Virus record (IMG/VR): IMGVR_UViG_3300009551_000005
Coordinates: 36,494 to 100,493 of that record
Strand: one strand, 5' to 3'
From: a virus
DNA length: 64,000 bases
Both the position numbers and the translations under genes were made by a program. Shown piece after piece: positions 36,007 to 55,851 of the stretch. The stretch's first letter is position 1. Each line of letters starts with the position of its first letter. The notes below the pieces were generated by a model. It had not been told where the DNA came from, ran no database searches, and saw only the letters and a list, made by a program, of their open reading frames with translations.

Positions 36007-37395
36007 ATGAACAACACGCAGACCGTGAACGGGATCGATCATCTTCTCTCCCAGGTGGGCTTGCCTGGTTCGGTGCCGACGCCGGCTCCGGTGCGCGGGC
36101 AGACGGTGAGCGAAGAGGGCAAGGCGCGGAGCCAGGCAGACTTCGAAGCCGCGCAGGCGATGGGATTCGCGCCCAAGCAGAGCATCTACGAGCGCGGCAC
36201 GATGGTGGTGCAGGCCGGCGTGAACAAGGCGCGCCGCGAGCGCGCGAAGTTCGACAAGCTCCCCTTGGCCGAGGAAGCGGCGCGCGACCTTCACGAGCGC
36301 GTGCAGTCTGAGGAGCGCTTCGACGAGACCGTCCGCGCGCACATCCTCCGCATGAACAAGGAGGGCCAGATCGTCCTCCCGACCAACGAGGGCGGCGACC
36401 GGTTCCTGGTCGAGCACCAGGCCATCGGCGGCCTCGCCTCGCGCGCCGGCATCCCCCAGGCGGGTCACCTCAAGGTCGCGTGGCCGGAGCTCCGCGCGCT
36501 CATCTGGAACCGCTGGCAGGACCGTCTCTCGACGCAGGAGAAGGCGAACAACGCGGAGCTCCTCCGCGCTGGCAAGAACCCGACGCACGATGACGTCGTG
36601 CTCAGGACGCGGAAGTGCGGCGACGAGCGCAGCATCTACGGGACGGTCTCCCCGGGTTACACCGCCTACGACGCGGACCAGATCGCGCAGGCCATCGAGA
36701 TTGCGACCAAGGGCACCGGCGCGCGGGCGAAGGTTCTCTACGACGGTTCGCGAACCAAGTTCGAAGTCCTCTTTCACTCGGACGTGAAGCCGACGGATTA
36801 CGTGGCGGGTGAGTTCTTCAAGGGTGGTGTCGTCATCTCCACCTCGGACATCGGCGAGTCCAGCATCGTGGGGCGTACGATCCTCTGGCAGAACCTCTGC
36901 CTGAACCTCGCGATCGTCGACAAGGCCACGGCGGGTCTCTTCCGCATCCGCCACATGGGCAACGTCCAGGAGCTCGCCAAGAAGTTCCGCGAGGGCTTCG
37001 CCACCGGCATGCAGCGCCTCGAGCACTTCCGTGAGCGCTGGGGCTTCGCGGTCCGCGAGAACGTGGTCACGCAGGCGCGCGCCGCGCACGAGGAGACGAA
37101 GCTTGTCGACGTGGAGGACATCTTCCCCGGTCTCTTCCGCGGAATCCTCGACGCGGAGATCCTGAAGGTGAAGGGCGACCGCGAGACCGTCGTTGATGCG
37201 CTCATGGACTGCTGGCGCAAGGATGAGAGCAGCGCCACCGCGACGGTTCGCACCTCGCGCGCCGCGGTGGTGAACGCCATCACCCGCTACGCCCACGAAG
37301 TGAATCAGGACCCCTGGGCGGAGGAGGACATCCAGCTCGCCGCCGGGCAGATCGCCTGGTCCTCCAAGCCGCTCCCCTTCGCCGCGAAGGAGTGA
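36007..37395 (+). CDS. DUF932-like phage/plasmid protein
   Basis: VSPGYTAYD, ISTSDIGESS, LCLNLAI, FRIRHMG, VNAITRYAH motifs. Confidence 0.7.
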   Translation: MNNTQTVNGIDHLLSQVGLPGSVPTPAPVRGQTVSEEGKARSQADFEAAQAMGFAPKQSIYERGTMVVQAGVNKARRERAKFDKLPLAEEAARDLHERVQSEERFDETVRAHILRMNKEGQIVLPTNEGGDRFLVEHQAIGGLASRAGIPQAGHLKVAWPELRALIWNRWQDRLSTQEKANNAELLRAGKNPTHDDVVLRTRKCGDERSIYGTVSPGYTAYDADQIAQAIEIATKGTGARAKVLYDGSRTKFEVLFHSDVKPTDYVAGEFFKGGVVISTSDIGESSIVGRTILWQNLCLNLAIVDKATAGLFRIRHMGNVQELAKKFREGFATGMQRLEHFRERWGFAVRENVVTQARAAHEETKLVDVEDIFPGLFRGILDAEILKVKGDRETVVDALMDCWRKDESSATATVRTSRAAVVNAITRYAHEVNQDPWAEEDIQLAAGQIAWSSKPLPFAAKE

Positions 37396-37541
37396 GGGAA
37401 CGAGGCGAGGAGCGGGGCAAAGGCCTCGCTCCTCCGAGCCTCGGCCGCCGCGTGGGCAGTCGTTCCCCCGACGCTCACCCCCCGCGCGTGCCGCCGAGAC
37501 TCGGGGGAGCGATCCCACCGGAGAAAGGCTGAGGGCCAAGA

Positions 37542-38498
37542 ATGAATCCGAGGGCTGAGACGGTCGCCGCGGTGTCGGCGGAAGTTGTGAAGAAGCACGG
37601 AAGCGGCGCGGTGCTGATGAAGGGCGAGCCCGGCGAGATCATGCTCACCGAGCGCGGAGTGGTGGACACCGGGAGCCTCTCGCTCGACCTCGCGCTGGGC
37701 GTGGGCGGGTGGCCGCGCGGTGCGATCGTTGAGCTCTTCGGCACCGACGAGGACGCCAAGAGCGCGCTGGCGTTTCACGCTTGCGCGGAGTTCGGCAAGG
37801 AGGAAGGCGTGCCCGCCATCATCGACGCGAGTCACAACGTCGACATGGAACGCGCGCTCGACATGGGCGTGGACACCTCCCGTCTCCTGGTCTCGCAGCC
37901 AGACAACGCGACGCAGGCACTTGATATCGCGGAGGTCATGACGCGCTCGGGCGCGGTGGACCTTGTGATCCTGGACTCTTTCGGCGCGCTCCTCGCGCTG
38001 GAAGACGAAGGCTTTGACCGTCGCCCTCACGTCGCGCTTCGTCAGATCTGCGCCATCGCGAAGCGCACTGGGACGACCGTCTTTTTCATCACGCGTCACG
38101 GTGACGCTCCGGTGGCCGGAGGTTGGGGCATCGGCAACTCTCTCAAGTTCTACGCCAGCCTGCGCGTGGACGTGCGTCGTGAGGACGGCGCGACTGTGGC
38201 GAACGTGTGCAAGAACAAGTTCGCGGCTCCCTTCGCACGCGGGCGGTTTCGCGTGGGACGTTCTGGTGTCGAGAAGTCCGCGGAGCTCTTCGATCTCTGC
38301 ATGAAGCGCGGTGTCATCCGGCGCACCGGCCGTCTCTTCGAGTACGTCATCGCCGGCGCGTGGTCTCCGCTCGGCAACTCCGAGGAACGAGCCATCGACG
38401 CCATCCACTCCGGCGTGGGAGCCATGCCGGGGCTGGAGGGGTATCTCCGCCAGAGCGTCATGGAGAAGGGAGCGACCGCGCCTGGGGAGGGAGCATGA
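37542..38498 (+). CDS. RecA paralogue with degenerate catalytic motifs
   Basis: TGSLSLDLALGVGGWPRG, LKFYASLRVDVR, KNKFAAPF; Walker A reads GTDEDAKS. Confidence 0.85.
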   Translation: MNPRAETVAAVSAEVVKKHGSGAVLMKGEPGEIMLTERGVVDTGSLSLDLALGVGGWPRGAIVELFGTDEDAKSALAFHACAEFGKEEGVPAIIDASHNVDMERALDMGVDTSRLLVSQPDNATQALDIAEVMTRSGAVDLVILDSFGALLALEDEGFDRRPHVALRQICAIAKRTGTTVFFITRHGDAPVAGGWGIGNSLKFYASLRVDVRREDGATVANVCKNKFAAPFARGRFRVGRSGVEKSAELFDLCMKRGVIRRTGRLFEYVIAGAWSPLGNSEERAIDAIHSGVGAMPGLEGYLRQSVMEKGATAPGEGA

Positions 38499-39157
38499 GC
38501 CTGGATCTCGAGAGGAGCATCTCCGAGCTCCGCGACGGGCGCGTGACCTTCGAGGACTTCGTTCAGGACACGCAGCCGGTCATGCAGGGCATGGCGCGGA
38601 AGATCATCAGGCAGTGGAAGGCGCCGAACTTCATGGCGCCTGAGGACGTGGCTCAGGAAGCCTTCCTCGCCGCGTGGCAGCGCGTCTGGACGTTCGACGA
38701 GAACCGCGGGACGGAGCTCCGGCGGTACGTCATGTGGAACGCGAAGGACCGCGCGACGAAGCACGTTCACAAGGCGCGCCTCGGCTCGAGGCCGCACCGG
38801 GGTGAGTGCAACATGCGGAGCGTGCAGGAGGTCCCTTCGACTCCGCACCTCCAGGATGAGGACTTGCCGGAGGGCGAGAGGCGAATGCGGCTCCCGCACG
38901 AGGAGCCAAGGCAGGAGGAAGGACTCGAGCGACGTGACGCCATCCGCCGCGCGCTCGCGGCGTGTGGACGGGGTAGGAAGGGTGCGGTGGAGCGCGCGGT
39001 GGTGTTGGCGGTGGCGGAGAAGGGGAGCATCGCGCCGGCGGCGCACGCGCTATATCGCGACCGCGCGGAGAGAAGACGCCTAGGACTACGGTCTTTGGCG
39101 CACGCGGAGGAAGTCACGTTGGCGGCGCTCGAGCGAGTCGCTGCTCGTTTGGGGTAA
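38495..39157 (+). CDS. Phage sigma-70 family factor (region 2)
   Basis: EDVAQEAFLAAWQRVWTFDENRGTELRRYV. Confidence 0.8.
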   Translation: MSLDLERSISELRDGRVTFEDFVQDTQPVMQGMARKIIRQWKAPNFMAPEDVAQEAFLAAWQRVWTFDENRGTELRRYVMWNAKDRATKHVHKARLGSRPHRGECNMRSVQEVPSTPHLQDEDLPEGERRMRLPHEEPRQEEGLERRDAIRRALAACGRGRKGAVERAVVLAVAEKGSIAPAAHALYRDRAERRRLGLRSLAHAEEVTLAALERVAARLG

Positions 39158-39201: not shown

Positions 39202-40635
39202 ATGGCTGCGACGACGACCGAAGAGACGGCGACCAAGAAGGCGACCAAGAAGAGCACCCAGAAGCCCGGCGAGAGCATCATGGGGCCGCTCGTGTGTGGG
39301 ATTCACCGCGACATGACGGTGCGCGAGGTCCTGGTTGAGAACAGCGGGCTCACCGAGGAGACCGCGGCCAGCTTGCCCACCGAGGCGCTCATCCAGCTCG
39401 TGACGCGGAAGGTGCTTCGCGATTGGCCCAAGGATTCCAAGGACCTGACGCAGTGCGTGCAGTGCAAGTCCATCTCCAACAAGGAGTACGACAACTGCCT
39501 TTTCTGCGGCTCCGAGGACACGGTGAACGAGATCCTCTCGGAGAAAGTCATCGACGACTTCAAGGCCGCGTGTGAGGCTGGGGTCGCGGCTTCCGTCGGT
39601 GATCAACCGACGCCGGCGAGGGAGGCCGCGAAAGGCGAGGACACGATGGGACCGAGCACGCACACGGCTCCGGCCGGGGGCAAGAAGAACGGAACAGCGA
39701 AGGCGGAGGAGTCCACTCCGAACCTTCTCGCAGGAGGATTGCCGCCGGGCGCGAAGCCCGCGGCGACGAGCACCGCGCTCGCGAAGGCGGAGCCCAAGGC
39801 GTTGGCGAAGCCTCAGACGGAGGACGATCTCGACAACGCCATCGCGAAGTTCGAGAAGCTGAAGGCCGGCGCGATGGTCTCCATCTGGGACCTCGGTGAC
39901 TACCTTCGCAACGAGATCTACGAGACGCAGCTCTGGAAGCAGCGGACCGAAGAGGTCGAAGAGAAGGGCGGCACGACCAAGAAGCCGGGCCGCTGGAAGA
40001 CGTGGGAGAGCTTCTGCAACTCGGAGCTCCAGTGCGTGCCGGCGACGGCGATGAACTGGATGCTCATCGCGAAGACGTTCACGCGGGACGACGTCGCGCG
40101 CTGGGGTCCGACCAAGCTCGGGATCCTCGCCACGGCTCCGAAGGAGGAGCTCGACCGCGTGAAGAAGAGCATGGAGGGTGGCGCGTCCGTCCGTCAGCTC
40201 CTCGGAGAGGTGAGCGACGCGAAGAAGAAGCACCCCGGCAAGGGTGGGCGCACGCTCGGTGTTTCGCGCGGCAAGTACGGCGGAGAGGCGAGCGACGCGC
40301 AGAAGGAGGCGCGCAAGGCGAACCTCCAGAAGAACGCCAACGCCGCCAAGAGCCGCGCTCTCAAGGAGGCGGAGAAGACGCCGCGCGAGGCGAAGATCAC
40401 GGTGGCCGCCATGATCGGGAAGCTCGGGCGGATGAAGTTCTACCGGACCGACGCGGTGGCGGCGAAGGCGAAGGACAAGAAGCTCGTCGCCACGAAGATG
40501 GACCACAACCCGGTGGGCATCATCGAGCTCCCCTTCCAGAAGGGGATGCACCTGGTCATCAAGCTTAAGTCCGTCGGTTCCGATGGTGGGTGGTGCGGCG
40601 ACGCTGAGTTCAAGCGCATCGAGGAAGAGGAGTAG
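39202..40635 (+). CDS. Large hypothetical protein with zinc ribbon and Lys/Ala-rich regions
   Basis: CVQC...CLFC; WKTWESFC motif of ParB-associated DNA-binding-type domains. Confidence 0.65.
   Translation: MAATTTEETATKKATKKSTQKPGESIMGPLVCGIHRDMTVREVLVENSGLTEETAASLPTEALIQLVTRKVLRDWPKDSKDLTQCVQCKSISNKEYDNCLFCGSEDTVNEILSEKVIDDFKAACEAGVAASVGDQPTPAREAAKGEDTMGPSTHTAPAGGKKNGTAKAEESTPNLLAGGLPPGAKPAATSTALAKAEPKALAKPQTEDDLDNAIAKFEKLKAGAMVSIWDLGDYLRNEIYETQLWKQRTEEVEEKGGTTKKPGRWKTWESFCNSELQCVPATAMNWMLIAKTFTRDDVARWGPTKLGILATAPKEELDRVKKSMEGGASVRQLLGEVSDAKKKHPGKGGRTLGVSRGKYGGEASDAQKEARKANLQKNANAAKSRALKEAEKTPREAKITVAAMIGKLGRMKFYRTDAVAAKAKDKKLVATKMDHNPVGIIELPFQKGMHLVIKLKSVGSDGGWCGDAEFKRIEEEE
39593..39613. 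repeat. Degenerate palindrome copy 8 (in-frame 3-nt deletion)
   Basis: CCGTCGGTGATCAACCGACGC, encodes SVGDQPTP. Confidence 0.7.
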
Positions 40636-43544: not shown

Positions 43545-44180
43545 ATGCCCAGAGGAAGAGGAAAAGTGGAGGTCGCGCCGGCGGCCGAGGCAGTGCAGGA
43601 GACCGCGAACGGCGCGGGAAGTGACAACGGCGCGCAGCTCGCGCGCGAGCTCGCAGCGGCGCAGTACCCCGTGGCTGTGGAGCGCGTGAACAAGGCGGTG
43701 GAGCGCCCCATTCAGAAGGGGTTCGAGAAGATCCTCGAGACGCTCTTCATCGAAGATCCCTGGGCGACGTTTCAGGACCTCGAGCAGAAGCTCGCGCTCT
43801 TCGACCGTCGCACCGACCCAGGTTCCACGCTGGAGGCGTTGGACCTCGCGGAGACCAACGCGCGTTCGGCGCACCGTCTCTTCTGCACGGCGAAGGTCGC
43901 GCACCGCGAGTGGGAGCTCGAGAACGCGCTCGTCTTCAGCGCGATGTACGCGGAGGCCACGGCGTCGCTCCAGCAAGAGAAGGACTCCAAGGCGCGCAAC
44001 AAGGCCATCACCGACGCGGATGTCACTCACCGCGCGGTCGTGCTGTTCCCGGATGAGTACAAGGCTCAGGAGGTGCGCAAGACGAAAGTCGAGATGATGG
44101 TGAAGAGCATGGAGAACCTCGCGGACATGTGGAAGAGCCGCGTCTTCACTCTCCGTGCTATCCAAGAAGCGCAGCGGTAA
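43545..44180 (+). CDS. Helical protein, possibly a UvsY-like recombination mediator
   Basis: Coiled coil with KAITDADV; GCGGCATA-N9-ATG; lies before the SSB-like and RecA genes. Confidence 0.5.
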   Translation: MPRGRGKVEVAPAAEAVQETANGAGSDNGAQLARELAAAQYPVAVERVNKAVERPIQKGFEKILETLFIEDPWATFQDLEQKLALFDRRTDPGSTLEALDLAETNARSAHRLFCTAKVAHREWELENALVFSAMYAEATASLQQEKDSKARNKAITDADVTHRAVVLFPDEYKAQEVRKTKVEMMVKSMENLADMWKSRVFTLRAIQEAQR

Positions 44181-44263: not shown

Positions 44264-45742
44264 ATGCCCACTGAGTTCAATTCCGTCGACGAGTTCCTCA
44301 AGTACCAGGTCGGCAATCGCGCCGGTCGCCTGAAGGGTTGGAGGAAGAACATCGACGAAAACCACGGCGCCGTGAAGGTCGTGTTCCACACGAAGCAGCT
44401 CCCAGTCATCCTCTGGCAGCACGCGAACATCCCGCAGATCGTCAACCGCCTGAAGGACGAGGAGGAGGTCGAGGAGCTCTGGAGCGGGAAGTGGAATTGC
44501 TGGGAGGATGAGGGCTACCTGAAGGGGCAGCGCGACTTCGACGAGAACAACAAGGTGAAGGACGTCTGGCCCACGCACTGCGGTCAGTGCCGCCTTCAGA
44601 CGTGGCTCTACCTCGAGGTGCTGAAGGGTCACATCCCGTTCTATCAGCCACTCTTCCGTTTCAGCGCCGCGGATGCGGAGCGCGACACCGTGCTCTTCGC
44701 CGGCGGGATCACCGGCCTGCACCCCGAGTTCAAGGATCTCGACAACGACACGAAGTCTCTCGTGAAGGAGTCGGGAATGGAGCTCGGCACCGCGTGGAAG
44801 CAGGAGAACTGGGCGAAGGCGGTCTGCCTCTTCACCGTCGCGCAGCTCGATGACCCGGGTCTCGGCATCATGATCTCGGAGGAGACGCAGCTCCTCTTCC
44901 AGAAGTTCCAGACGGAGCTCAGGAAGACCATCCAGAGGAAGCAGGTGGACGCGCAGGCGCGCGAGAAGGGTCTCGGCAATCCGTTTAGGAACCCCTATCC
45001 GTTCCGGTGGGATTACGACGGGAAGCCCAAGAGCAAGAAGATCTCGGACATGTACGACTGCACCGCGCTCGAAGAGCCCGTGCCCGAGGACGTTCTCAAG
45101 CTCGTGATGGGCACGCCGCCGGACATCACGAAGCAGAAGCTCCGCCACAACCAGCAGGAGATGCGCGCTTATCTCGAGGAGCACCAGATCAAGGGCGTGA
45201 AGATTCCCTGGGACGAGATCTACGACGTGCCCAAGCTCGTGGATGACAAGGACGACGCCGCGTTTCCTCACGGCGCTAACGCGCCGGCGGAGGAGAAGGG
45301 CAGGACGCCGGAGGTCAGCACCGTCGGTGATCGATCACCGACGGCTCCCGATCCCAAGGCCGCGGCGCTGGCAGAAGCGAAGGCCGCGCGTAGCATCCCG
45401 ACGGCCGAGGACGACGCCAACTTCCCGGGCGCGGTCGCCGAGTGCTGGGACGACAAGAGCGGGTGCAAGACGTGGATGTGGTCCGACGCTCATACGTGTC
45501 CGAACCCGAAGTGCGGACGCATCTGGGACCCCGAGAAGGCTGCCGCCGCGAAGGCTGCGGAGGAGGCGAAGAAGGCGGCCGAGCAGCCCGCCCAGGAGGC
45601 TCCCCGTCCGCGCGGCAGGGGACGCGGCGCCAAGGCCGCGGAGACCGCAGCTCCAGCTCAGGAAGCGCCGCCGGCGGCCGCCCAGACGACCTCCATCCCC
45701 GCGCGCGGGAAAGAGGTCGGCGGAGACAAGGTCGGTTTCTGA
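44264..45742 (+). CDS. Putative ssDNA-binding protein (gp32-like) with low-complexity tail
   Basis: H...C...CxxC zinc ligands; position beside RecA; function inferred. Confidence 0.45.
   Translation: MPTEFNSVDEFLKYQVGNRAGRLKGWRKNIDENHGAVKVVFHTKQLPVILWQHANIPQIVNRLKDEEEVEELWSGKWNCWEDEGYLKGQRDFDENNKVKDVWPTHCGQCRLQTWLYLEVLKGHIPFYQPLFRFSAADAERDTVLFAGGITGLHPEFKDLDNDTKSLVKESGMELGTAWKQENWAKAVCLFTVAQLDDPGLGIMISEETQLLFQKFQTELRKTIQRKQVDAQAREKGLGNPFRNPYPFRWDYDGKPKSKKISDMYDCTALEEPVPEDVLKLVMGTPPDITKQKLRHNQQEMRAYLEEHQIKGVKIPWDEIYDVPKLVDDKDDAAFPHGANAPAEEKGRTPEVSTVGDRSPTAPDPKAAALAEAKAARSIPTAEDDANFPGAVAECWDDKSGCKTWMWSDAHTCPNPKCGRIWDPEKAAAAKAAEEAKKAAEQPAQEAPRPRGRGRGAKAAETAAPAQEAPPAAAQTTSIPARGKEVGGDKVGF
45321..45344. 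repeat. 24-bp palindrome copy 10 (perfect), in CDS linker
   Basis: Encodes TVGDRSPTA. Confidence 0.97.
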
Positions 45743-45760
45743 CGCGGCATGATGAGCGCC

Positions 45761-46957
45761 ATGCCCAGGCGCTCACAACGTGACCAAGGGCTCTTCGCAG
45801 TGGCGAAGGAGCTCGACGACTTCAAACAGGCCGCCCACGTCCTCCGCAGAGTCCGAAGCGTGCCCACGATCTTCCCGATCGTGGACCATGCGTTCGGCGT
45901 GGGCGGCCTCCCCATCGACCGGTTCGGCCTCGTGCACGGTCCCTCCTCGGAGGGAAAGACCACGTTCACGCTCGGCCTCATCCTCTCGTTCATCATCCTC
46001 GAGCACTTCGCGCGGCTCATCGACGCGGAGCGAACGACGCCCATCACCTGGTGCGAAGGGCTCATGGCCAAGCTCGCGCACTCACCGCTTTTCGGCGCGC
46101 TTCGTCCGACCACCTATGAGGAGGTCGAAGCGAAGGTCAGGCGCGACTCGCACAAGCGGAAGAAGCTCCTCGACGAAGGCAGACTCCCCGCGAACACGAG
46201 CTGCCTCTACATCGTCGACTCCATCCGCAAGCTCACGCCGGCGAACATGTTCCAGAAGATCGCGCTCGACGCTGCCGGTAAGGCGCAGCGCGGGGGTGGG
46301 AAGCTCGGTTCCGACGGGATGGGAGGACGTGGCGCGCAGATCAAAGCCAACTACAACGCCGCGTGGTGCGACGAGCTGACGCCGCTCCTCGACGACACGG
46401 GCGCGGGGATGATCTGGATCGCGCGCGAGACGAAGGACAACGACGGCAACGAGACCGCGACGAAGATGTCCTACACGGACCAGGGCGTGAAGGTGGGAGG
46501 CGGAGCCGCGCCGTATTACGACGCGTCCTACGTCGCGCGCGTCGAGAAAGACGCGTGGGTCTACGAGAAGAAGCTCACGAAGGAGGAGCGCGAGGCTGGT
46601 GCCAAGAGCCCGATCGTGGGCGAGAGGTTCCGCGTCACCATCAGGAAGACCAAGGTCACCGGTAAGAAAGAGAAGGTGACGATGGGCTTCTTCCACACGG
46701 CCAACGGAAACCTCGAGGGCGTGCCCGAGGGGTTCGATCGACCGCGCGACGTTCTGGAGCTCGCGTTGAAGTTCGAGGTCGTCCGTCAGGGCGGGTCATG
46801 GTTCTCGTGGGACAAGACGCGCCTCGGCAACGGTGAGAACAACGTCCTCCGTCGGCTCCACGCGGAGCCGGACCTTTGCCAGCGGCTCGAGGCCGCGTGT
46901 CGCGAGCGCTTCGCCAACGTCGCGCCGGAAGTGGAGGCGGAAGATGCCGAGGCCTAG
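45761..46957 (+). CDS. recA: RecA/UvsX-like recombinase with intact motifs
   Basis: GPSSEGKTT, IDAE, IVDS, GGGAAPYYDAS; GCGGCATG-N9-ATG. Confidence 0.85.
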   Translation: MPRRSQRDQGLFAVAKELDDFKQAAHVLRRVRSVPTIFPIVDHAFGVGGLPIDRFGLVHGPSSEGKTTFTLGLILSFIILEHFARLIDAERTTPITWCEGLMAKLAHSPLFGALRPTTYEEVEAKVRRDSHKRKKLLDEGRLPANTSCLYIVDSIRKLTPANMFQKIALDAAGKAQRGGGKLGSDGMGGRGAQIKANYNAAWCDELTPLLDDTGAGMIWIARETKDNDGNETATKMSYTDQGVKVGGGAAPYYDASYVARVEKDAWVYEKKLTKEEREAGAKSPIVGERFRVTIRKTKVTGKKEKVTMGFFHTANGNLEGVPEGFDRPRDVLELALKFEVVRQGGSWFSWDKTRLGNGENNVLRRLHAEPDLCQRLEAACRERFANVAPEVEAEDAEA

Positions 46958-53317: not shown

Positions 53318-54070
53318 ATGGCGAGGAACGAGAAGGCACGGGAGAAGTCTGCGAAGAAACCGCCCACGCCCAGGGAAGATGGACCGCGCATCGTCGGCGA
53401 CCCGGTGAGGACGCCGCTCGACGACGTGGAAAAGAACCCTTGGAACCCGAACGAGATGACCGCGTTCGAGCAGGAGTCGCTGAAGGACGGTCTTCAGCAC
53501 GACGGCTGGCTCGCTTCGTTGGCGCTCACGATCTGGGGCACCGACGAGAAGGGGCGGAAGAAGAACCTCATTATCGACGGTGAGCACCGGTGGACCGTCG
53601 CGAAGCAGCTCGGGTTCAAGGAAGGTCCGATGGTCTTCCTTCACGGCGTGACCGAGGCGCAGGCCAAGGCGCTCACGATCAAGCTCAACGCCAAGCGCGG
53701 CTCTCCCAACGAAGAGAAGCTCAAGATCATCGTGAAAGAGCTCGAGTTGAAGCTCCAGGTGCCGAACCTCTCGCTCGACCTCGGCATCGAGCAGGAGAAG
53801 CTCTCGATGATGCTGGCCGCGCCTCCCCTGGTCCTCGAGGGAGAGACGCCGCCGGAGAAGAACGGAACACCGCCGGGTGAGATGCCCTCGGGCATGACGT
53901 CGCACGTGCGCATGGTGCAGCTCTTCTTCAACGAGGAGCAGCACAACGAGTTCCTGGCGGCCGTGAAGAAGCTCGGCCCCATCTACTTCAAGAAGGATCC
54001 CAAGAAGCAGACGTCGACCGACATCACCATGGAGGCGATCCGTCGTGCTGTCGCTGCAACTGAGAGCTGA
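53318..54070 (+). CDS. ParB/Srx-like N-terminal domain protein with putative C-terminal ribbon-helix-helix
   Basis: NPWNPNEM, LIIDGEHRW, LNAKRG; C-terminus VRMVQLFF-NEEQHNEFLAAVKKL...STDITMEAIRRAV. Confidence 0.8.
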   Translation: MARNEKAREKSAKKPPTPREDGPRIVGDPVRTPLDDVEKNPWNPNEMTAFEQESLKDGLQHDGWLASLALTIWGTDEKGRKKNLIIDGEHRWTVAKQLGFKEGPMVFLHGVTEAQAKALTIKLNAKRGSPNEEKLKIIVKELELKLQVPNLSLDLGIEQEKLSMMLAAPPLVLEGETPPEKNGTPPGEMPSGMTSHVRMVQLFFNEEQHNEFLAAVKKLGPIYFKKDPKKQTSTDITMEAIRRAVAATES

Positions 54071-54947
54071 GGTCAACGACAAGTCCGTCCAAGCGCTCCT
54101 CGGCAAGTCGGCGGACAAGAAGGACTACAGCGTCTCGCTCACCAACGACGTCTCGGTGTTCAAGGCCAACGGGCAGCGTCTCATCACGCTCCTCCGCGGT
54201 GCCATTCCCGAGGACGAGGCGGAGAGCGCATACCCGTTCCTCCACTGGCTCCGGCACTACCGGACGATGAACCGCGGCAAGTACAGCGGGAAGGAACGAT
54301 TCAAGAAGCTCAAGGGTGACGGGACGATCTCCAACACGAACCACGCGCAGCCGGTGCGTTCGGCCATCGCCGGGTTCTTCGACCGCTACCCGCGCTTTCC
54401 GTACTGCCGCGAGACCGCGTTCGTCACCGAGAAGCCTGAGGAATGGGGCGCGTGCCTGCCGCTCATCCAGCGTGCCGGAGACCTCTTCAAGCTCCACGTC
54501 GCGGACCGGTACAAGGCGCAGCTCGACGCGGCGAAGAAGACGCACCCCGCGTACATCATCAAGGGCACACCGTTCACCACGGTGACCATCAACAACTGCG
54601 TCGCCGGCGGGTATCACACCGACGCCGGCGACTATGGTCCGGGCTTCGGCGTCATCGCGGTCCTCCGCCGCGGGAACTACAAGGGCTGCGAGCTCGTCTT
54701 CCCCAAGTACCGTTGTGCCGTCGATCTCCAGGACCGCGACGTCATCCTCTTCGACCCTCACGAGGTGCACGGCAACGTGCCTTTCGCGGACCAGGAGGGC
54801 GAGGAGGGCAAGGACTGGGAGAGGATCTCGATGGTCTTCTACTTCCGCGCCAAGATGCTGGAGTGCCTCTCGCCGGAAGAGGAGCTCGCGCGAGCGAAGG
54901 CGCGCGGCGCCCTCGAAGCGCCTGAAGAGGAGCTCCCGCAGCCGTAG
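54045..54947 (+). CDS. TET/JBP-family 2OG-Fe(II) dioxygenase
   Basis: PFTTVTINN..GYHTDAGD (HxD), HEVHGN, RISMVFYFR; GFFDRYPRFPYCRET. Confidence 0.88.
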   Translation: MLSLQLRAEVNDKSVQALLGKSADKKDYSVSLTNDVSVFKANGQRLITLLRGAIPEDEAESAYPFLHWLRHYRTMNRGKYSGKERFKKLKGDGTISNTNHAQPVRSAIAGFFDRYPRFPYCRETAFVTEKPEEWGACLPLIQRAGDLFKLHVADRYKAQLDAAKKTHPAYIIKGTPFTTVTINNCVAGGYHTDAGDYGPGFGVIAVLRRGNYKGCELVFPKYRCAVDLQDRDVILFDPHEVHGNVPFADQEGEEGKDWERISMVFYFRAKMLECLSPEEELARAKARGALEAPEEELPQP

Positions 54948-54963
54948 CGTCATCAGGGGAGCC

Positions 54964-55851
54964 GTGAAAGCCAACTCTCTGTTCAAGGACTTCTGCGCCT
55001 TCGCGTGCGGTCAGCTCGCGAGCGGTGACATCGATCCCACCTACCCCGTCCTGAAGCGCTTCTACCGAGTGGAGAAGCTCTCGCGCGAGCAGGCGCTCTG
55101 GCGGACGGTGCTCTATCTCGCCTGGTACGACCTCGGCTCCGCGGAGCGCATCTGGCGCAAGTACCCGAATCCGTTCCTGCCGACGGATTCGGAAGTGCGC
55201 GGGCTTTCGACGGGCACCGAGCGCCGATCGTTCCGGGGCAACACCAAGGTGCTCGACTTCCTGGGTGCGCTCCTTTCGCGCGCATCGCTCGAAGGAGGCT
55301 CGCTCGAGAAGTGGGTCGACTCGTTCTTCGTCGACGATCCGACGAAGGGGTGGGACCGCGCGCGCGAGGAGCTTCAGGAGCTCGCGTTCGCGGGACCTTG
55401 GGCGAGCTACAAGTGGGCCGACCTCCTGAAGCACGTGCACGACGCGCCTATCACCGCGAGCGACATCGGCGTCGGCGGACGCGGAGAGACCGCGGGGCCG
55501 ATCCCGGGGATGGTGCGTCTCACCGGGCTGCCTTGGCAGGAGTGCGCCAACGACGTGAAGAAGCAGGTCGCGCTGCTCAAGCGCGCGCAGGATGCTGGCG
55601 TGCCCTTCAACGGTCTCGACCAGCTCGAGACGGCGCTCTGCGACTTCAACTCCTTGTGCAAAGGCGGCTACTACGTCGGGCACGACATCGACACGCAGAT
55701 GAAGCATCTCGAGCACGTGAAGGACCGCGGACTTTGGGATGCGCGCGTGGTTTTCGAGGACAGGTTCCGCGGCGAGGTCTCCGGCGGATGGTTCGGTGTG
55801 CGCAAGGAGCTGAAGACGCTCTACCGCGATCAGAAAGTGCTCATCACTTGA
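54964..55851 (+). CDS. Amino acid:DNA transferase (aGPT-Pplase2-like, glycosylase fold)
   Basis: GDIDPTY, TERRSFRG, GPWASYKWADL, ETALCDF..GYYVGHDID. Confidence 0.8.
   Translation: MKANSLFKDFCAFACGQLASGDIDPTYPVLKRFYRVEKLSREQALWRTVLYLAWYDLGSAERIWRKYPNPFLPTDSEVRGLSTGTERRSFRGNTKVLDFLGALLSRASLEGGSLEKWVDSFFVDDPTKGWDRAREELQELAFAGPWASYKWADLLKHVHDAPITASDIGVGGRGETAGPIPGMVRLTGLPWQECANDVKKQVALLKRAQDAGVPFNGLDQLETALCDFNSLCKGGYYVGHDIDTQMKHLEHVKDRGLWDARVVFEDRFRGEVSGGWFGVRKELKTLYRDQKVLIT

What the first reader, a model, noticed from the sequence alone, without database searches (positions are those of the whole stretch)
37542..38498. Catalytically dead, host-like RecA paralogue alongside an intact phage RecA
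Seen, relative to the bacterial RecA consensus: Walker A GPESSGKT becomes GTDEDAKS, catalytic IDAEH becomes IDASH, FINQ becomes FITRH, and loops L1/L2 are shortened. The N-terminal polymerisation region and the KFYAS/KNK motifs are retained. The ORF is intact, lies downstream of the sigma70 promoter and is coupled to the sigma gene. A second, more divergent RecA at 45761 has intact motifs. Inference: a dominant-negative decoy that poisons host RecA filaments, blocking SOS, prophage induction or RecA-triggered defence.
Basis: partly seen in the sequence, partly recalled or inferred. Interest (0 to 1): 0.7.

Follow-up and report, generated by a model that had tools for sequence, protein, structure and literature searches.

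The report
Dead host-type RecA copy in phage
An uncultured 100-kb phage that has its own working recombinase also carries a one-off, heavily eroded copy of a bacterial RecA gene that has lost its ATP and DNA sites but kept the faces that touch neighbouring RecA molecules, so it probably works by binding RecA (most likely the host's), although this is untested.

Summary
The sequence observation holds. Window 37542-38498 (+) encodes a 318-aa protein with the full RecA fold (AF2 pLDDT 88.6; TM 0.84-0.86 to solved bacterial RecAs). Its P-loop reads GTDEDAKS, catalytic E96 is S, Q194 is R, Y103 is R, and L1, L2 and the 229-243 hairpin are cut down.

It fails NCBI's RecA equivalog cut-off (179.5 vs 325.3 bits). 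It overlaps the start of a sigma-factor gene by ATGA. No sigma70-type promoter match was found.

New here:
- It is a singleton, with nothing above 47% identity in any collection searched.
- 41 related phage records share the gene order, but none has this gene, so it is a lineage-specific insertion.
- Its nearest relatives are Polyangiaceae (Myxococcota) RecAs, on a branch about 20-30 times longer than normal.
- Loss is selective. It keeps 12 of 42 conserved ATP/DNA positions but 21 of 25 subunit-interface positions (p = 1e-5).
- All 9 indels are in frame.

Best reading (about 0.45): a non-catalytic RecA mimic that docks on host RecA. The poison/decoy idea fits but is unproven. The rivals are a helper of the phage recombinase, a decaying relic, or another role.

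The parts
37542..38498 (+). Gene for the 318-aa catalytically degenerate RecA paralogue (P0001): N-terminal helix 3-19, RecA core, C-terminal domain 245-308
   Evidence: ORF and translation. Pfam RecA 155.7 bits. TIGR02012 179.5 bits, below the 325.3 cut-off. AF2 pLDDT 88.6, pTM 0.88. Foldseek TM 0.84-0.86 to bacterial RecA. GC3 0.82 against a genome median of 0.85.
37740..37766 (+). Degenerate P-loop codons (residues 67-75, G-TDEDAKS-A, in place of G-PESSGKT-T)
   Evidence: Alignments to E. coli/Salmonella RecA and 38 canonical RecAs.
37830..37832 (+). Codon for Ser97, at the position of the catalytic Glu96 of E. coli RecA
38088..38135 (+). FITRH (N193T, Q194R) and the shortened L2 remnant (residues about 183-198; lowest-confidence part of the model)
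   Evidence: pLDDT 56 for residues 191-200.
38211..38219 (+). Retained K-N-K (E. coli K248-N249-K250), the trans-acting contact to the neighbouring subunit's ATP site
37396..37541 (+). 146-nt intergenic leader with two strong GC-rich hairpins (about 37401-37443 and 37448-37521), followed by a GGAG/GAGGG Shine-Dalgarno-like stretch before the ATG
   Evidence: Sequence. RNA fold -85.5 kcal/mol, z -3.7. No sigma70 consensus match.
38495..39157 (+). Sigma-factor gene (220 aa) whose ATG overlaps the stop of the dead RecA gene (ATGA); conserved in the phage family
   Evidence: Sigma70_r2 E 4e-8. Found in 28 of 41 related loci.
36007..37395 (+). Upstream DUF932-like gene; in relatives that have it, it is followed directly by the sigma gene
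   Evidence: Pfam DUF932 E 3e-4. Synteny in L047, L050, L054, L068 and L082 with gaps of 130-380 bp.
45749..46957 (+). The phage's own divergent RecA/UvsX-like recombinase (RecA2) with intact Walker A, catalytic Glu, Walker B and K-x-K; core gene of the phage family

Best explanation
P0001 descends from a bacterial (Polyangiaceae-type, presumably host) recA gene. One phage lineage captured it and inserted it just upstream of the phage sigma-factor gene. It has since been remodelled into a non-catalytic binding protein.

It still folds as a complete RecA protomer. It can no longer hydrolyse ATP and probably cannot bind it properly. It has also lost the primary (L1/L2) and secondary (R243, K245) DNA sites and the hairpin that lines the LexA/repressor groove.

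It keeps the surfaces by which one RecA protomer contacts the next: the 111-140 face that receives a neighbour's N-terminal domain, and K216, F217, R222 and K248/K250, which reach into the neighbour's ATP site.

The most likely mode of action is docking onto host RecA protomers or filament ends, forming dead-end or mixed assemblies. This would damp host RecA functions (recombination, SOS signalling, RecA-linked defence) during what looks like a lytic infection. The phage's own very different recombinase would be left untouched.

Shown here: fold, motif loss, selective retention, singleton status, insertion site, likely source clade. Inferred: the partner, the inhibitory direction and the benefit to the phage.
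For: - Fold and family. ESMFold-type model without an alignment: pTM 0.78.
- Motif loss.
- Selective retention at 131 columns that are at least 90% conserved in 38 canonical RecAs: ATP, DNA and site II 12/42, interface classes 21/25, remainder 39/64. Fisher p = 1.2e-5 and 1.4e-3.
- Nine indels relative to the nearest canonical RecA, all in frame and all in loops. No stop where 3.95 are expected from position-specific composition, P = 0.02.
- The interface is of bacterial type. The phage's RecA2 has a 12-residue insertion and no similarity in the 111-140 region.
- The gene is absent from all 41 related phage records, 22 of them at least 90% complete. These keep the same gene order and the RecA2 gene, so it is an accessory gene and not part of the core recombination machinery.
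- The nearest sequences and the tree placement are among Polyangiaceae RecAs.
- It is translationally coupled to the sigma gene. The genome has no integrase or S24 repressor.
- Precedents from papers. M. xanthus ImuA, a RecA-like protein, binds RecA1 and inhibits its DNA binding and strand exchange (bioRxiv 10.1101/2020.12.14.422803). RecA-NT motifs dock onto RecA-like cores (PMC11791113). RecA is a partner in the ShosTA defence system (PMC12961424).
Against: - There is no experiment and no complex prediction.
- The host is unknown and identity to any RecA is only 39-47%, so the cognate interface may have drifted. P0001's own N-terminal docking segment is poorly conserved (F21H, R28M).
- The functional classes used in the enrichment test were set from my knowledge of the E. 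coli RecA literature, not from coordinates.
- As a singleton it offers no orthologues, so there is no dN/dS.
- ORF intactness is weak evidence at 65-68% GC.
- K72 and S73 survive, so some nucleotide binding cannot be excluded.
- T-R at the N193-Q194 position resembles the A/T-R of the phage RecA2 family. This could hint at a link to RecA2 instead.
Confidence: 0.45

Rival explanations
1. It is an accessory subunit of the phage's own recombination or replication machinery. It would be a non-catalytic paralogue that nucleates, stabilises or caps filaments of the phage recombinase RecA2, in the manner of Rad55-Rad57, the Shu complex or RadB, or that bridges RecA2 to SbcCD, the helicase or the polymerase.
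For: It lies in the replication/recombination module, 7.2 kb upstream of RecA2. Inactive RecA-family paralogues that assist an active recombinase are well established in eukaryotes and archaea (general knowledge). T-R at the N193-Q194 position resembles the invariant A/T-R of the RecA2 family.
Against: All 41 relatives have RecA2 without this gene, so RecA2 does not need it. P0001 shares 22% identity with RecA2. Its interface regions match bacterial RecA and not RecA2, which has an insertion and an unrelated sequence in the 111-140 region and a different N-terminus.
Confidence: 0.2
2. It is a functionless relic: a captured host recA that is decaying neutrally and has not yet acquired a stop or frameshift.
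For: Catalytic and DNA-binding determinants are lost. The terminal branch is extremely long, 6-10 substitutions per site against a median of 0.3. It is a singleton absent from all relatives. Long ORFs arise easily at this GC content, for example a 367-aa antisense ORF over the same region. Its GC3 is in the lower quarter of the genome's genes.
Against: - At that divergence a neutral sequence should carry frameshifts. Instead all 9 indels are in frame and confined to loops.
- No stop occurs where about 4 are expected.
- Loss is strongly non-uniform across functional classes (p = 1e-5).
- The sequence alone still predicts a confident RecA fold.
- The stop codon overlaps the sigma start in a compact phage genome.
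Confidence: 0.15
3. It has a different, still ligand-dependent role. It could be a nucleotide-binding but non-hydrolysing switch or sensor, for example a regulator working with the co-translated sigma factor. It could also be a decoy that absorbs a host factor which recognises RecA-like proteins, rather than acting on RecA filaments.
For: G66, K72, S73, D100, D144 and S145 of the nucleotide pocket survive. It is tightly coupled by ATGA to the sigma gene. It sits in a variable accessory-gene slot upstream of sigma.
Against: The P-loop carries three acidic side chains and G71A. Y103, T74, N193 and Q194 are lost as well. No known sigma regulator has a RecA fold (my knowledge). In relatives the sigma gene is present without it.
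Confidence: 0.15

Closest known systems
Bacterial RecA (Pfam PF00154 + PF21096; NCBIfam TIGR02012), nearest to Polyangiaceae (Myxococcota) RecAs
   Same: It has the same three-part fold, with TM 0.84-0.86 to M. tuberculosis, M. smegmatis and E. coli RecA structures. It has the same subunit-interface motifs: LLVSQPD...ALDI, SGAVDL, LKFYAS and KNK. D144/S145 and R226 are kept.
   Different: - The P-loop is degenerate.
- Changed or lost: E96S, Y103R, N193T/Q194R, R243 lost, K245N.
- L1, L2 and the 229-243 hairpin are truncated, and there is no acidic C-terminal tail.
- It scores 179.5 bits against the 325.3-bit equivalog cut-off.
- Its branch is 20-30 times longer than those of orthologues.
- It is encoded by a phage that has another recombinase.
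ImuA / ImuA' (RecA-like subunit of the ImuA-ImuB-DnaE2 mutasome; NF033429, NF058630)
   Same: It is a RecA-derived protein that acts through protein contacts. M. xanthus ImuA binds RecA1 and inhibits its DNA binding and strand exchange. This is the closest functional analogue of the proposed mechanism, and it occurs in the likely host phylum.
   Different: P0001 scores only 41 bits against ImuA (cut-off 150). It keeps the RecA N-terminal helix and C-terminal domain. It is far closer to RecA proper, has no imuB/dnaE2 neighbours and is viral. M. xanthus ImuA is reported to be an ATPase (PMC11002988, title and abstract seen).
Dominant-negative and truncated RecA alleles of E. coli, and ATPase-dead Rad51 forms (laboratory mutants; from my knowledge of the literature, not re-read here)
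   Same: These are defective protomers that still co-assemble with the wild-type protein and poison the filament. This is the mechanism proposed for P0001.
   Different: Those are engineered or selected single-site or truncation mutants of the cell's own gene. P0001 is a natural, extensively remodelled, virus-encoded copy.
Non-catalytic Rad51/RadA paralogues (Rad55-Rad57, Shu complex, archaeal RadB; phage Sak4)
   Same: They are RecA-fold paralogues that have lost strand-exchange activity and work alongside an active recombinase.
   Different: Those stimulate their cognate recombinase and are conserved core factors. P0001 is not conserved in its phage family and resembles the host-type recombinase, not the phage's. 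It scores 19.7 bits against RadB (cut-off 172.4).
Protein inhibitors of RecA: RecX, DinI, PsiB, RdgC
   Same: The proposed outcome is the same: limiting RecA filament extension or activity. PsiB is a mobile-element-encoded anti-SOS factor.
   Different: They have unrelated folds. None is derived from RecA itself.

Membership tests
RecA recombinase (bacterial, TIGR02012 equivalog / Pfam RecA) | Significant match to the Pfam RecA domain above the gathering score | tested here: met
   155.7 bits against a cut-off of 27, residues 12-235. Canonical RecAs score about 435-455 bits in the same kind of search.
RecA recombinase (bacterial, TIGR02012 equivalog / Pfam RecA) | Score above NCBIfam's equivalog cut-off | tested here: not met
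   179.5 bits against a cut-off of 325.3.
RecA recombinase (bacterial, TIGR02012 equivalog / Pfam RecA) | Walker A P-loop GPESSGKT (GxxxxGK[ST]) | tested here: not met
   It reads GTDEDAKS. G71 is A and there are three acidic residues; K72 is kept and T73 is S.
RecA recombinase (bacterial, TIGR02012 equivalog / Pfam RecA) | Catalytic Glu96 and gamma-phosphate sensor Gln194 | tested here: not met
   E96 is S and Q194 is R. Y103 is R and N193 is T as well.
RecA recombinase (bacterial, TIGR02012 equivalog / Pfam RecA) | DNA-binding loops L1 (157-164) and L2 (195-209), and site II residues R243 and K245 | tested here: not met
   The L1 region is 10 residues shorter and L2 is 8 residues shorter. 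Only 6 of 22 conserved site-I positions are kept. R243 is lost in the hairpin cut and K245 is N.
RecA recombinase (bacterial, TIGR02012 equivalog / Pfam RecA) | Three-part fold: N-terminal helix, alpha/beta core, C-terminal domain | tested here: met
   AF2 pLDDT 88.6, pTM 0.88. Foldseek TM 0.84-0.86, probability 1.00, to RecA structures over about 325 columns.
RecA recombinase (bacterial, TIGR02012 equivalog / Pfam RecA) | DNA-dependent ATPase and strand-exchange activity | not testable with these tools
   Needs purified protein.
ImuA / ImuA' | Match above the NCBIfam cut-offs (NF033429, NF058630) and an imuB-dnaE2 neighbourhood | tested here: not met
   NF033429 scores 41.1 bits against 150, and NF058630 gives no hit. 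The neighbours are DUF932 and a sigma factor.
UvsX-like phage recombinase (PHROG 97) | Full-length match and intact ATPase motifs | tested here: not met
   The match is partial: residues 35-150 only, 90 bits. The ATPase motifs are degenerate. The phage's other gene, RecA2, is the UvsX-like recombinase.
RadB / Rad51-paralogue type accessory proteins | Match to TIGR02237/NF006861 and conservation alongside the cognate recombinase | tested here: not met
   19.7 bits against a cut-off of 172.4. It is absent from all 41 relatives that carry RecA2.

The most novel reading that the evidence does not exclude
A lytic phage has turned a stolen host recA into a pseudo-enzyme that caps or co-polymerises with host RecA filaments. 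This would be a virus-encoded anti-RecA protein built from RecA itself. It would shut down host recombination, SOS or RecA-linked immunity while the phage's own divergent recombinase, which has incompatible interfaces, keeps working. The scatter of other degenerate, KNK-retaining RecA-like proteins in metagenomes and in another phage would then mark a recurrent strategy.
Probability: 0.35. Interest if true: 0.8.

Novelty: new variant of a known kind. Interest (0 to 1): 0.55.

Why it matters
RecA sits at the centre of bacterial recombination, SOS induction, prophage induction and at least some anti-phage systems. Known natural RecA inhibitors (RecX, DinI, PsiB) are unrelated small proteins. In the literature searches made here I found no paper describing a virus-encoded, catalytically dead, full-length RecA.

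If P0001 does poison host filaments, three things would follow:
- It would be a new class of counter-host factor made by subverting the target's own self-assembly interface.
- It would give a natural map of which RecA surfaces suffice for filament docking.
- It would offer a lead for anti-SOS reagents.

It would also show how a phage with its own recombinase can insulate that enzyme from an inhibitor through divergent interfaces. If it is only a decaying relic, the finding is a modest note on gene capture by a poorly known family of roughly 90-100 kb soil phages.

Tried and rejected
- **Orthologues for dN/dS.** I found none. There is nothing above 47% identity among 5.8 billion clusters, 1.84 billion representatives, GenBank phages, IMG/VR or 301 Myxococcota genomes. 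Synonymous sites against any RecA would be saturated, so no codon test was attempted.
- **Gene context of other degenerate RecA-like proteins.** Cluster look-ups showed mostly singletons on short contigs.
- **Virus G001, which carries the milder variant P0122.** It shares nothing else with this phage. It has only one RecA hit, at 77% estimated completeness.
- **Pfam RecA search of the 41 relatives' whole records.** Only the RecA2 orthologues were found. The apparent 'second matches' are second segments of the same gene or sub-threshold noise. The two tblastn 'dead RecA' hits in L069 and L070 fall on RecA2 itself.
- **Sigma70 promoter upstream.** None was found.
- **ImuA, RadB or KaiC membership.** Rejected on scores.
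- **Temperate lifestyle, which would make self-induction control relevant.** No integrase or S24 peptidase was found.
- **Viral rather than bacterial origin.** The language-model neighbours are viral RecA clusters. However, BLAST scores favour Polyangiaceae RecAs: 193-198 bits against at most 175 bits for the sampled viral RecAs.
- **First tree.** It joined P0001 to other long-branch degenerate sequences, with a long-branch warning. I rebuilt it without them. The careful bootstrap search did not finish in time, so support values are SH-aLRT from quick searches only.
- **Complex prediction of P0001 with a host RecA or with RecA2.** This is not possible with the single-chain tool.

Full report
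**What is there**

The window is bases 36494-100493 of a complete 100,493-bp IMG/VR virus record with direct terminal repeats. Its GC content is about 65%.

The ORF at 37542-38498 (+) encodes 318 residues.
- It matches Pfam RecA (155.7 bits, residues 12-235) and solved bacterial RecA structures by sequence (E 1e-47 to 1e-40).
- An AlphaFold2 model built on 118 homologues is confident (pLDDT 88.6, pTM 0.88).
- The model superposes on M. tuberculosis, M. smegmatis, T. maritima and E. coli RecA at TM 0.84-0.86 over the whole chain. It has the N-terminal helix (3-19), the core and the C-terminal domain (245-308).
- The Atlas's alignment-free model is also confident (pTM 0.78).

**The motif changes**

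I aligned P0001 to Salmonella RecA, which shares E. coli numbering, and to 38 canonical RecAs. I also checked it against E. coli RecA chains and metagenomic RecAs.
- G66-PESSGKT-T74 is G-TDEDAKS-A.
- E96 is S, Y103 is R, and N193-Q194 is T-R.
- The L1 region lacks 10 residues. L2 lacks 8, with 3 inserted just after it.
- The 229-243 hairpin lacks 10 residues. R243 is lost in that cut and K245 is N.
- The acidic C-terminal tail is missing.
- Kept: G66, K72, D100, D144-S145, R176, G211-G212, L215-K216-F217-Y218, S220, R222, R226, K248-N249-K250, and most of 111-140 (LLVSQPD..QALDI...RSGAVD).

NCBI's RecA equivalog model gives 179.5 bits against a cut-off of 325.3. ImuA gives 41 against 150, and RadB 19.7 against 172. 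By fold it belongs to the RecA family. By the family's own defining features it is not a RecA recombinase.

**Surroundings**

- Upstream lies a DUF932-like gene (36007-37395).
- A 146-nt leader follows. It folds into two strong hairpins (-85.5 kcal/mol, z -3.7).
- The stop of P0001 overlaps the ATG of the next gene (ATGA at 38495-38498). That gene is a 220-aa sigma factor (Sigma70_r2, E 4e-8).
- Downstream come a 477-aa unknown, a family-B DNA polymerase, two unknowns, the second RecA (45749-46957), a UvrD-like helicase, SbcD- and SbcC-like genes, and a TET/JBP plus amino-acid:DNA transferase module.
- The genome has no tyrosine integrase and no S24 peptidase, so it is probably virulent.

**The second RecA**

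RecA2 has GPSSEGKT, DAER, VDS and KTK, which are invariant or nearly so in its family. It belongs to a large family, with more than 300 proteins at 42-52% identity, many on contigs of 90-120 kb. It is only 22% identical to P0001. Its N-terminus and its 111-140 equivalent are unrelated to the bacterial type, and the latter carries a 12-residue insertion.

**P0001 is a lineage-specific insertion**

An alignment of the RecA2 family retrieved 41 IMG/VR loci from phages of about 40-100 kb. They share the order DnaB - primase - (DUF932 or UvrD or unknown) - sigma - unk477 - PolB - unk211 - unk492 - RecA2 - SbcD - SbcC.

A Pfam RecA search of the 41 whole records, 22 of them at least 90% complete, found only the RecA2 orthologue in each. 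Where DUF932 is present (L047, L050, L054, L068, L082), the sigma gene follows within 130-380 bp. There is no room for a 957-bp gene.

The slot upstream of sigma is variable. It holds DUF932, UvrD-like helicases, unknown 385-431-aa proteins or small ORFs. P0001 is therefore an accessory gene acquired by this one lineage, not a core partner of RecA2.

**It is a singleton, probably of myxobacterial origin**

The best hits are canonical RecAs in every collection searched:
- at most 42% identity by BLASTP among 5.8 billion clusters;
- at most 50% over matched stretches among 1.84 billion representatives;
- less than 40% in GenBank phages;
- at most 47% in 301 Myxococcota genomes.

The closest canonical group (P0002 and similar) is 80-82% identical to RecAs of Polyangiaceae MAGs. 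Polyangiaceae RecAs give 193-198 bits, against at most 175 bits for the sampled viral RecAs.

In a maximum-likelihood tree with the other degenerate sequences left out, P0001 falls in a six-row set with Polyangiaceae/Byssovorax-type RecAs (SH-aLRT 96). Its terminal branch is about 10 substitutions per site against a median of 0.29. With the degenerate sequences included, the branch is 5.98 against 0.36 and the tool warns of long-branch joins. 'Host-like' is thus reasonable as to origin, but the host is inferred and the placement of so long a branch is unsure.

**Is it maintained or decaying?**

No orthologues exist, so dN/dS cannot be computed. The indirect evidence favours maintenance.
- At 131 columns that are at least 90% conserved in canonical RecAs, P0001 keeps 72.
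- Retention is 12/42 in the ATP, DNA-site-I and site-II classes. It is 21/25 in the subunit-interface classes (N-terminal segment, 111-140, K216/F217/R222/K248/K250) and 39/64 elsewhere. Fisher p = 1.2e-5 and 1.4e-3.
- The classes were set from my knowledge of the E. coli RecA literature, which is a caveat.
- All nine indels relative to the nearest canonical RecA are in frame and fall in loops.
- No stop occurs where 3.95 are expected from position-specific composition (P = 0.02).
- GC3 (0.82) is within the genome's range (median 0.85).

None of this is proof. At this GC content long ORFs are common, for example a 367-aa antisense ORF over the same region.

**Mechanism**

The pattern is catalysis, DNA binding and the LexA-groove hairpin gone, with protomer-protomer contacts kept and of the bacterial type. 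It fits a protein that docks onto RecA protomers or filament ends without contributing activity.

The partner is most likely the host RecA, because the retained surfaces match bacterial RecA and not RecA2. Coupling to the sigma gene suggests expression with the phage's own transcription programme.

Published parallels exist in the likely host phylum. M. xanthus ImuA, a RecA-like protein, binds RecA1 and inhibits its DNA binding and strand exchange. RecA-NT motifs mediate docking onto RecA-like cores. RecA is a partner in at least one defence system, ShosTA. Classic dominant-negative and truncated RecA alleles show the same principle; this last point is from my own knowledge.

I put this reading at about 0.45. 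A helper of RecA2 gets about 0.2. It is weakened by the gene's absence from all relatives and by the mismatched interfaces. A small resemblance at the N193-Q194 position, T-R against the A/T-R of the RecA2 family, keeps it alive. A neutral relic gets about 0.15, and another ligand-dependent or sigma-linked role about 0.15.

**Recurrence**

Among the 105 full-length representatives nearest to P0001, 30 have at least one of: a degenerate Walker A, a changed E96, a changed Q194, or a short L2. Nearly all keep K248/K250. These include:
- P0122, on an unrelated 60.7-kb virus;
- P0131, an annotated RecA of Pendulispora brunnea;
- many singletons on short contigs, some of which may be assembly errors.

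I did not re-test it.

My literature searches found no paper on a phage-encoded, catalytically dead, full-length RecA.

**Verdict**

The thing is a new variant of a known kind: a RecA-family pseudo-enzyme, viral, full length and host-derived. Interest is moderate (0.55). The idea is attractive and testable, but it rests on one orphan gene in an uncultured phage.

Noticed in passing
L047-L087 (region upstream of the sigma gene); window 36007-38495: In the 41 related ~90-100 kb phages, the slot just upstream of the conserved sigma-unk477-PolB block varies. It holds DUF932, UvrD-like helicase, unknown 385-431-aa proteins or small ORFs. It looks like an accessory-gene hot spot.
   Followed up: partly
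Proteins P0122-P0269 (one search list): 30 of the 105 full-length cluster representatives nearest to P0001 have a degenerate Walker A, a changed E96 or Q194, or a short L2. Nearly all keep K248-N-K250. Most are singletons on short contigs, so some may be assembly artefacts.
   Followed up: partly
L003:1565-2521 (virus G001, 60.7 kb): An unrelated high-GC virus carries a RecA (P0122) with E96D, Q194A and an L2 8 residues shorter, but an intact P-loop. It still passes the TIGR02012 cut-off (392.6 bits) and is the only RecA hit in that record.
   Followed up: partly
P0131 (Pendulispora brunnea); G047-G049: Polyangiaceae MAGs carry two RecA paralogues each. Pendulispora brunnea has an annotated RecA with E96D and a rewritten L2, so degenerate RecA paralogues also exist in myxobacterial chromosomes.
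   Followed up: no
window 45749-46957 and alignment A4: The phage RecA2 family has an invariant A/T-R-E where bacterial RecA has N193-Q194-I195. P0001 has T-R-H at the same place. It is unclear whether this is coincidence, convergence or a functional link.
   Followed up: no
window 37396-37541: The 146-nt leader before the dead RecA gene folds into two strong GC-rich hairpins (-85.5 kcal/mol, z -3.7) and has no sigma70 consensus. Relatives also have a hairpin after DUF932, and L050 has TTGACG-N17-TATATT before its sigma gene.
   Followed up: partly
window 53318-55851: A ParB-N-like gene, a TET/JBP 2OG-Fe dioxygenase (E 4e-21) and an amino-acid:DNA transferase (ADDT, E 5e-9) lie in a row. This suggests DNA hypermodification, and parts of it are shared by some relatives (L049, L056, L072, L086).
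   Followed up: no
window 39202-40635, 43545-44180, 44264-45742: Three proteins with no Pfam or PHROG match (477, 211 and 492 aa) are conserved in synteny in 23-39 of the 41 related phages. They lie between sigma, PolB and RecA2 and are unknown core replication-module genes.
   Followed up: no
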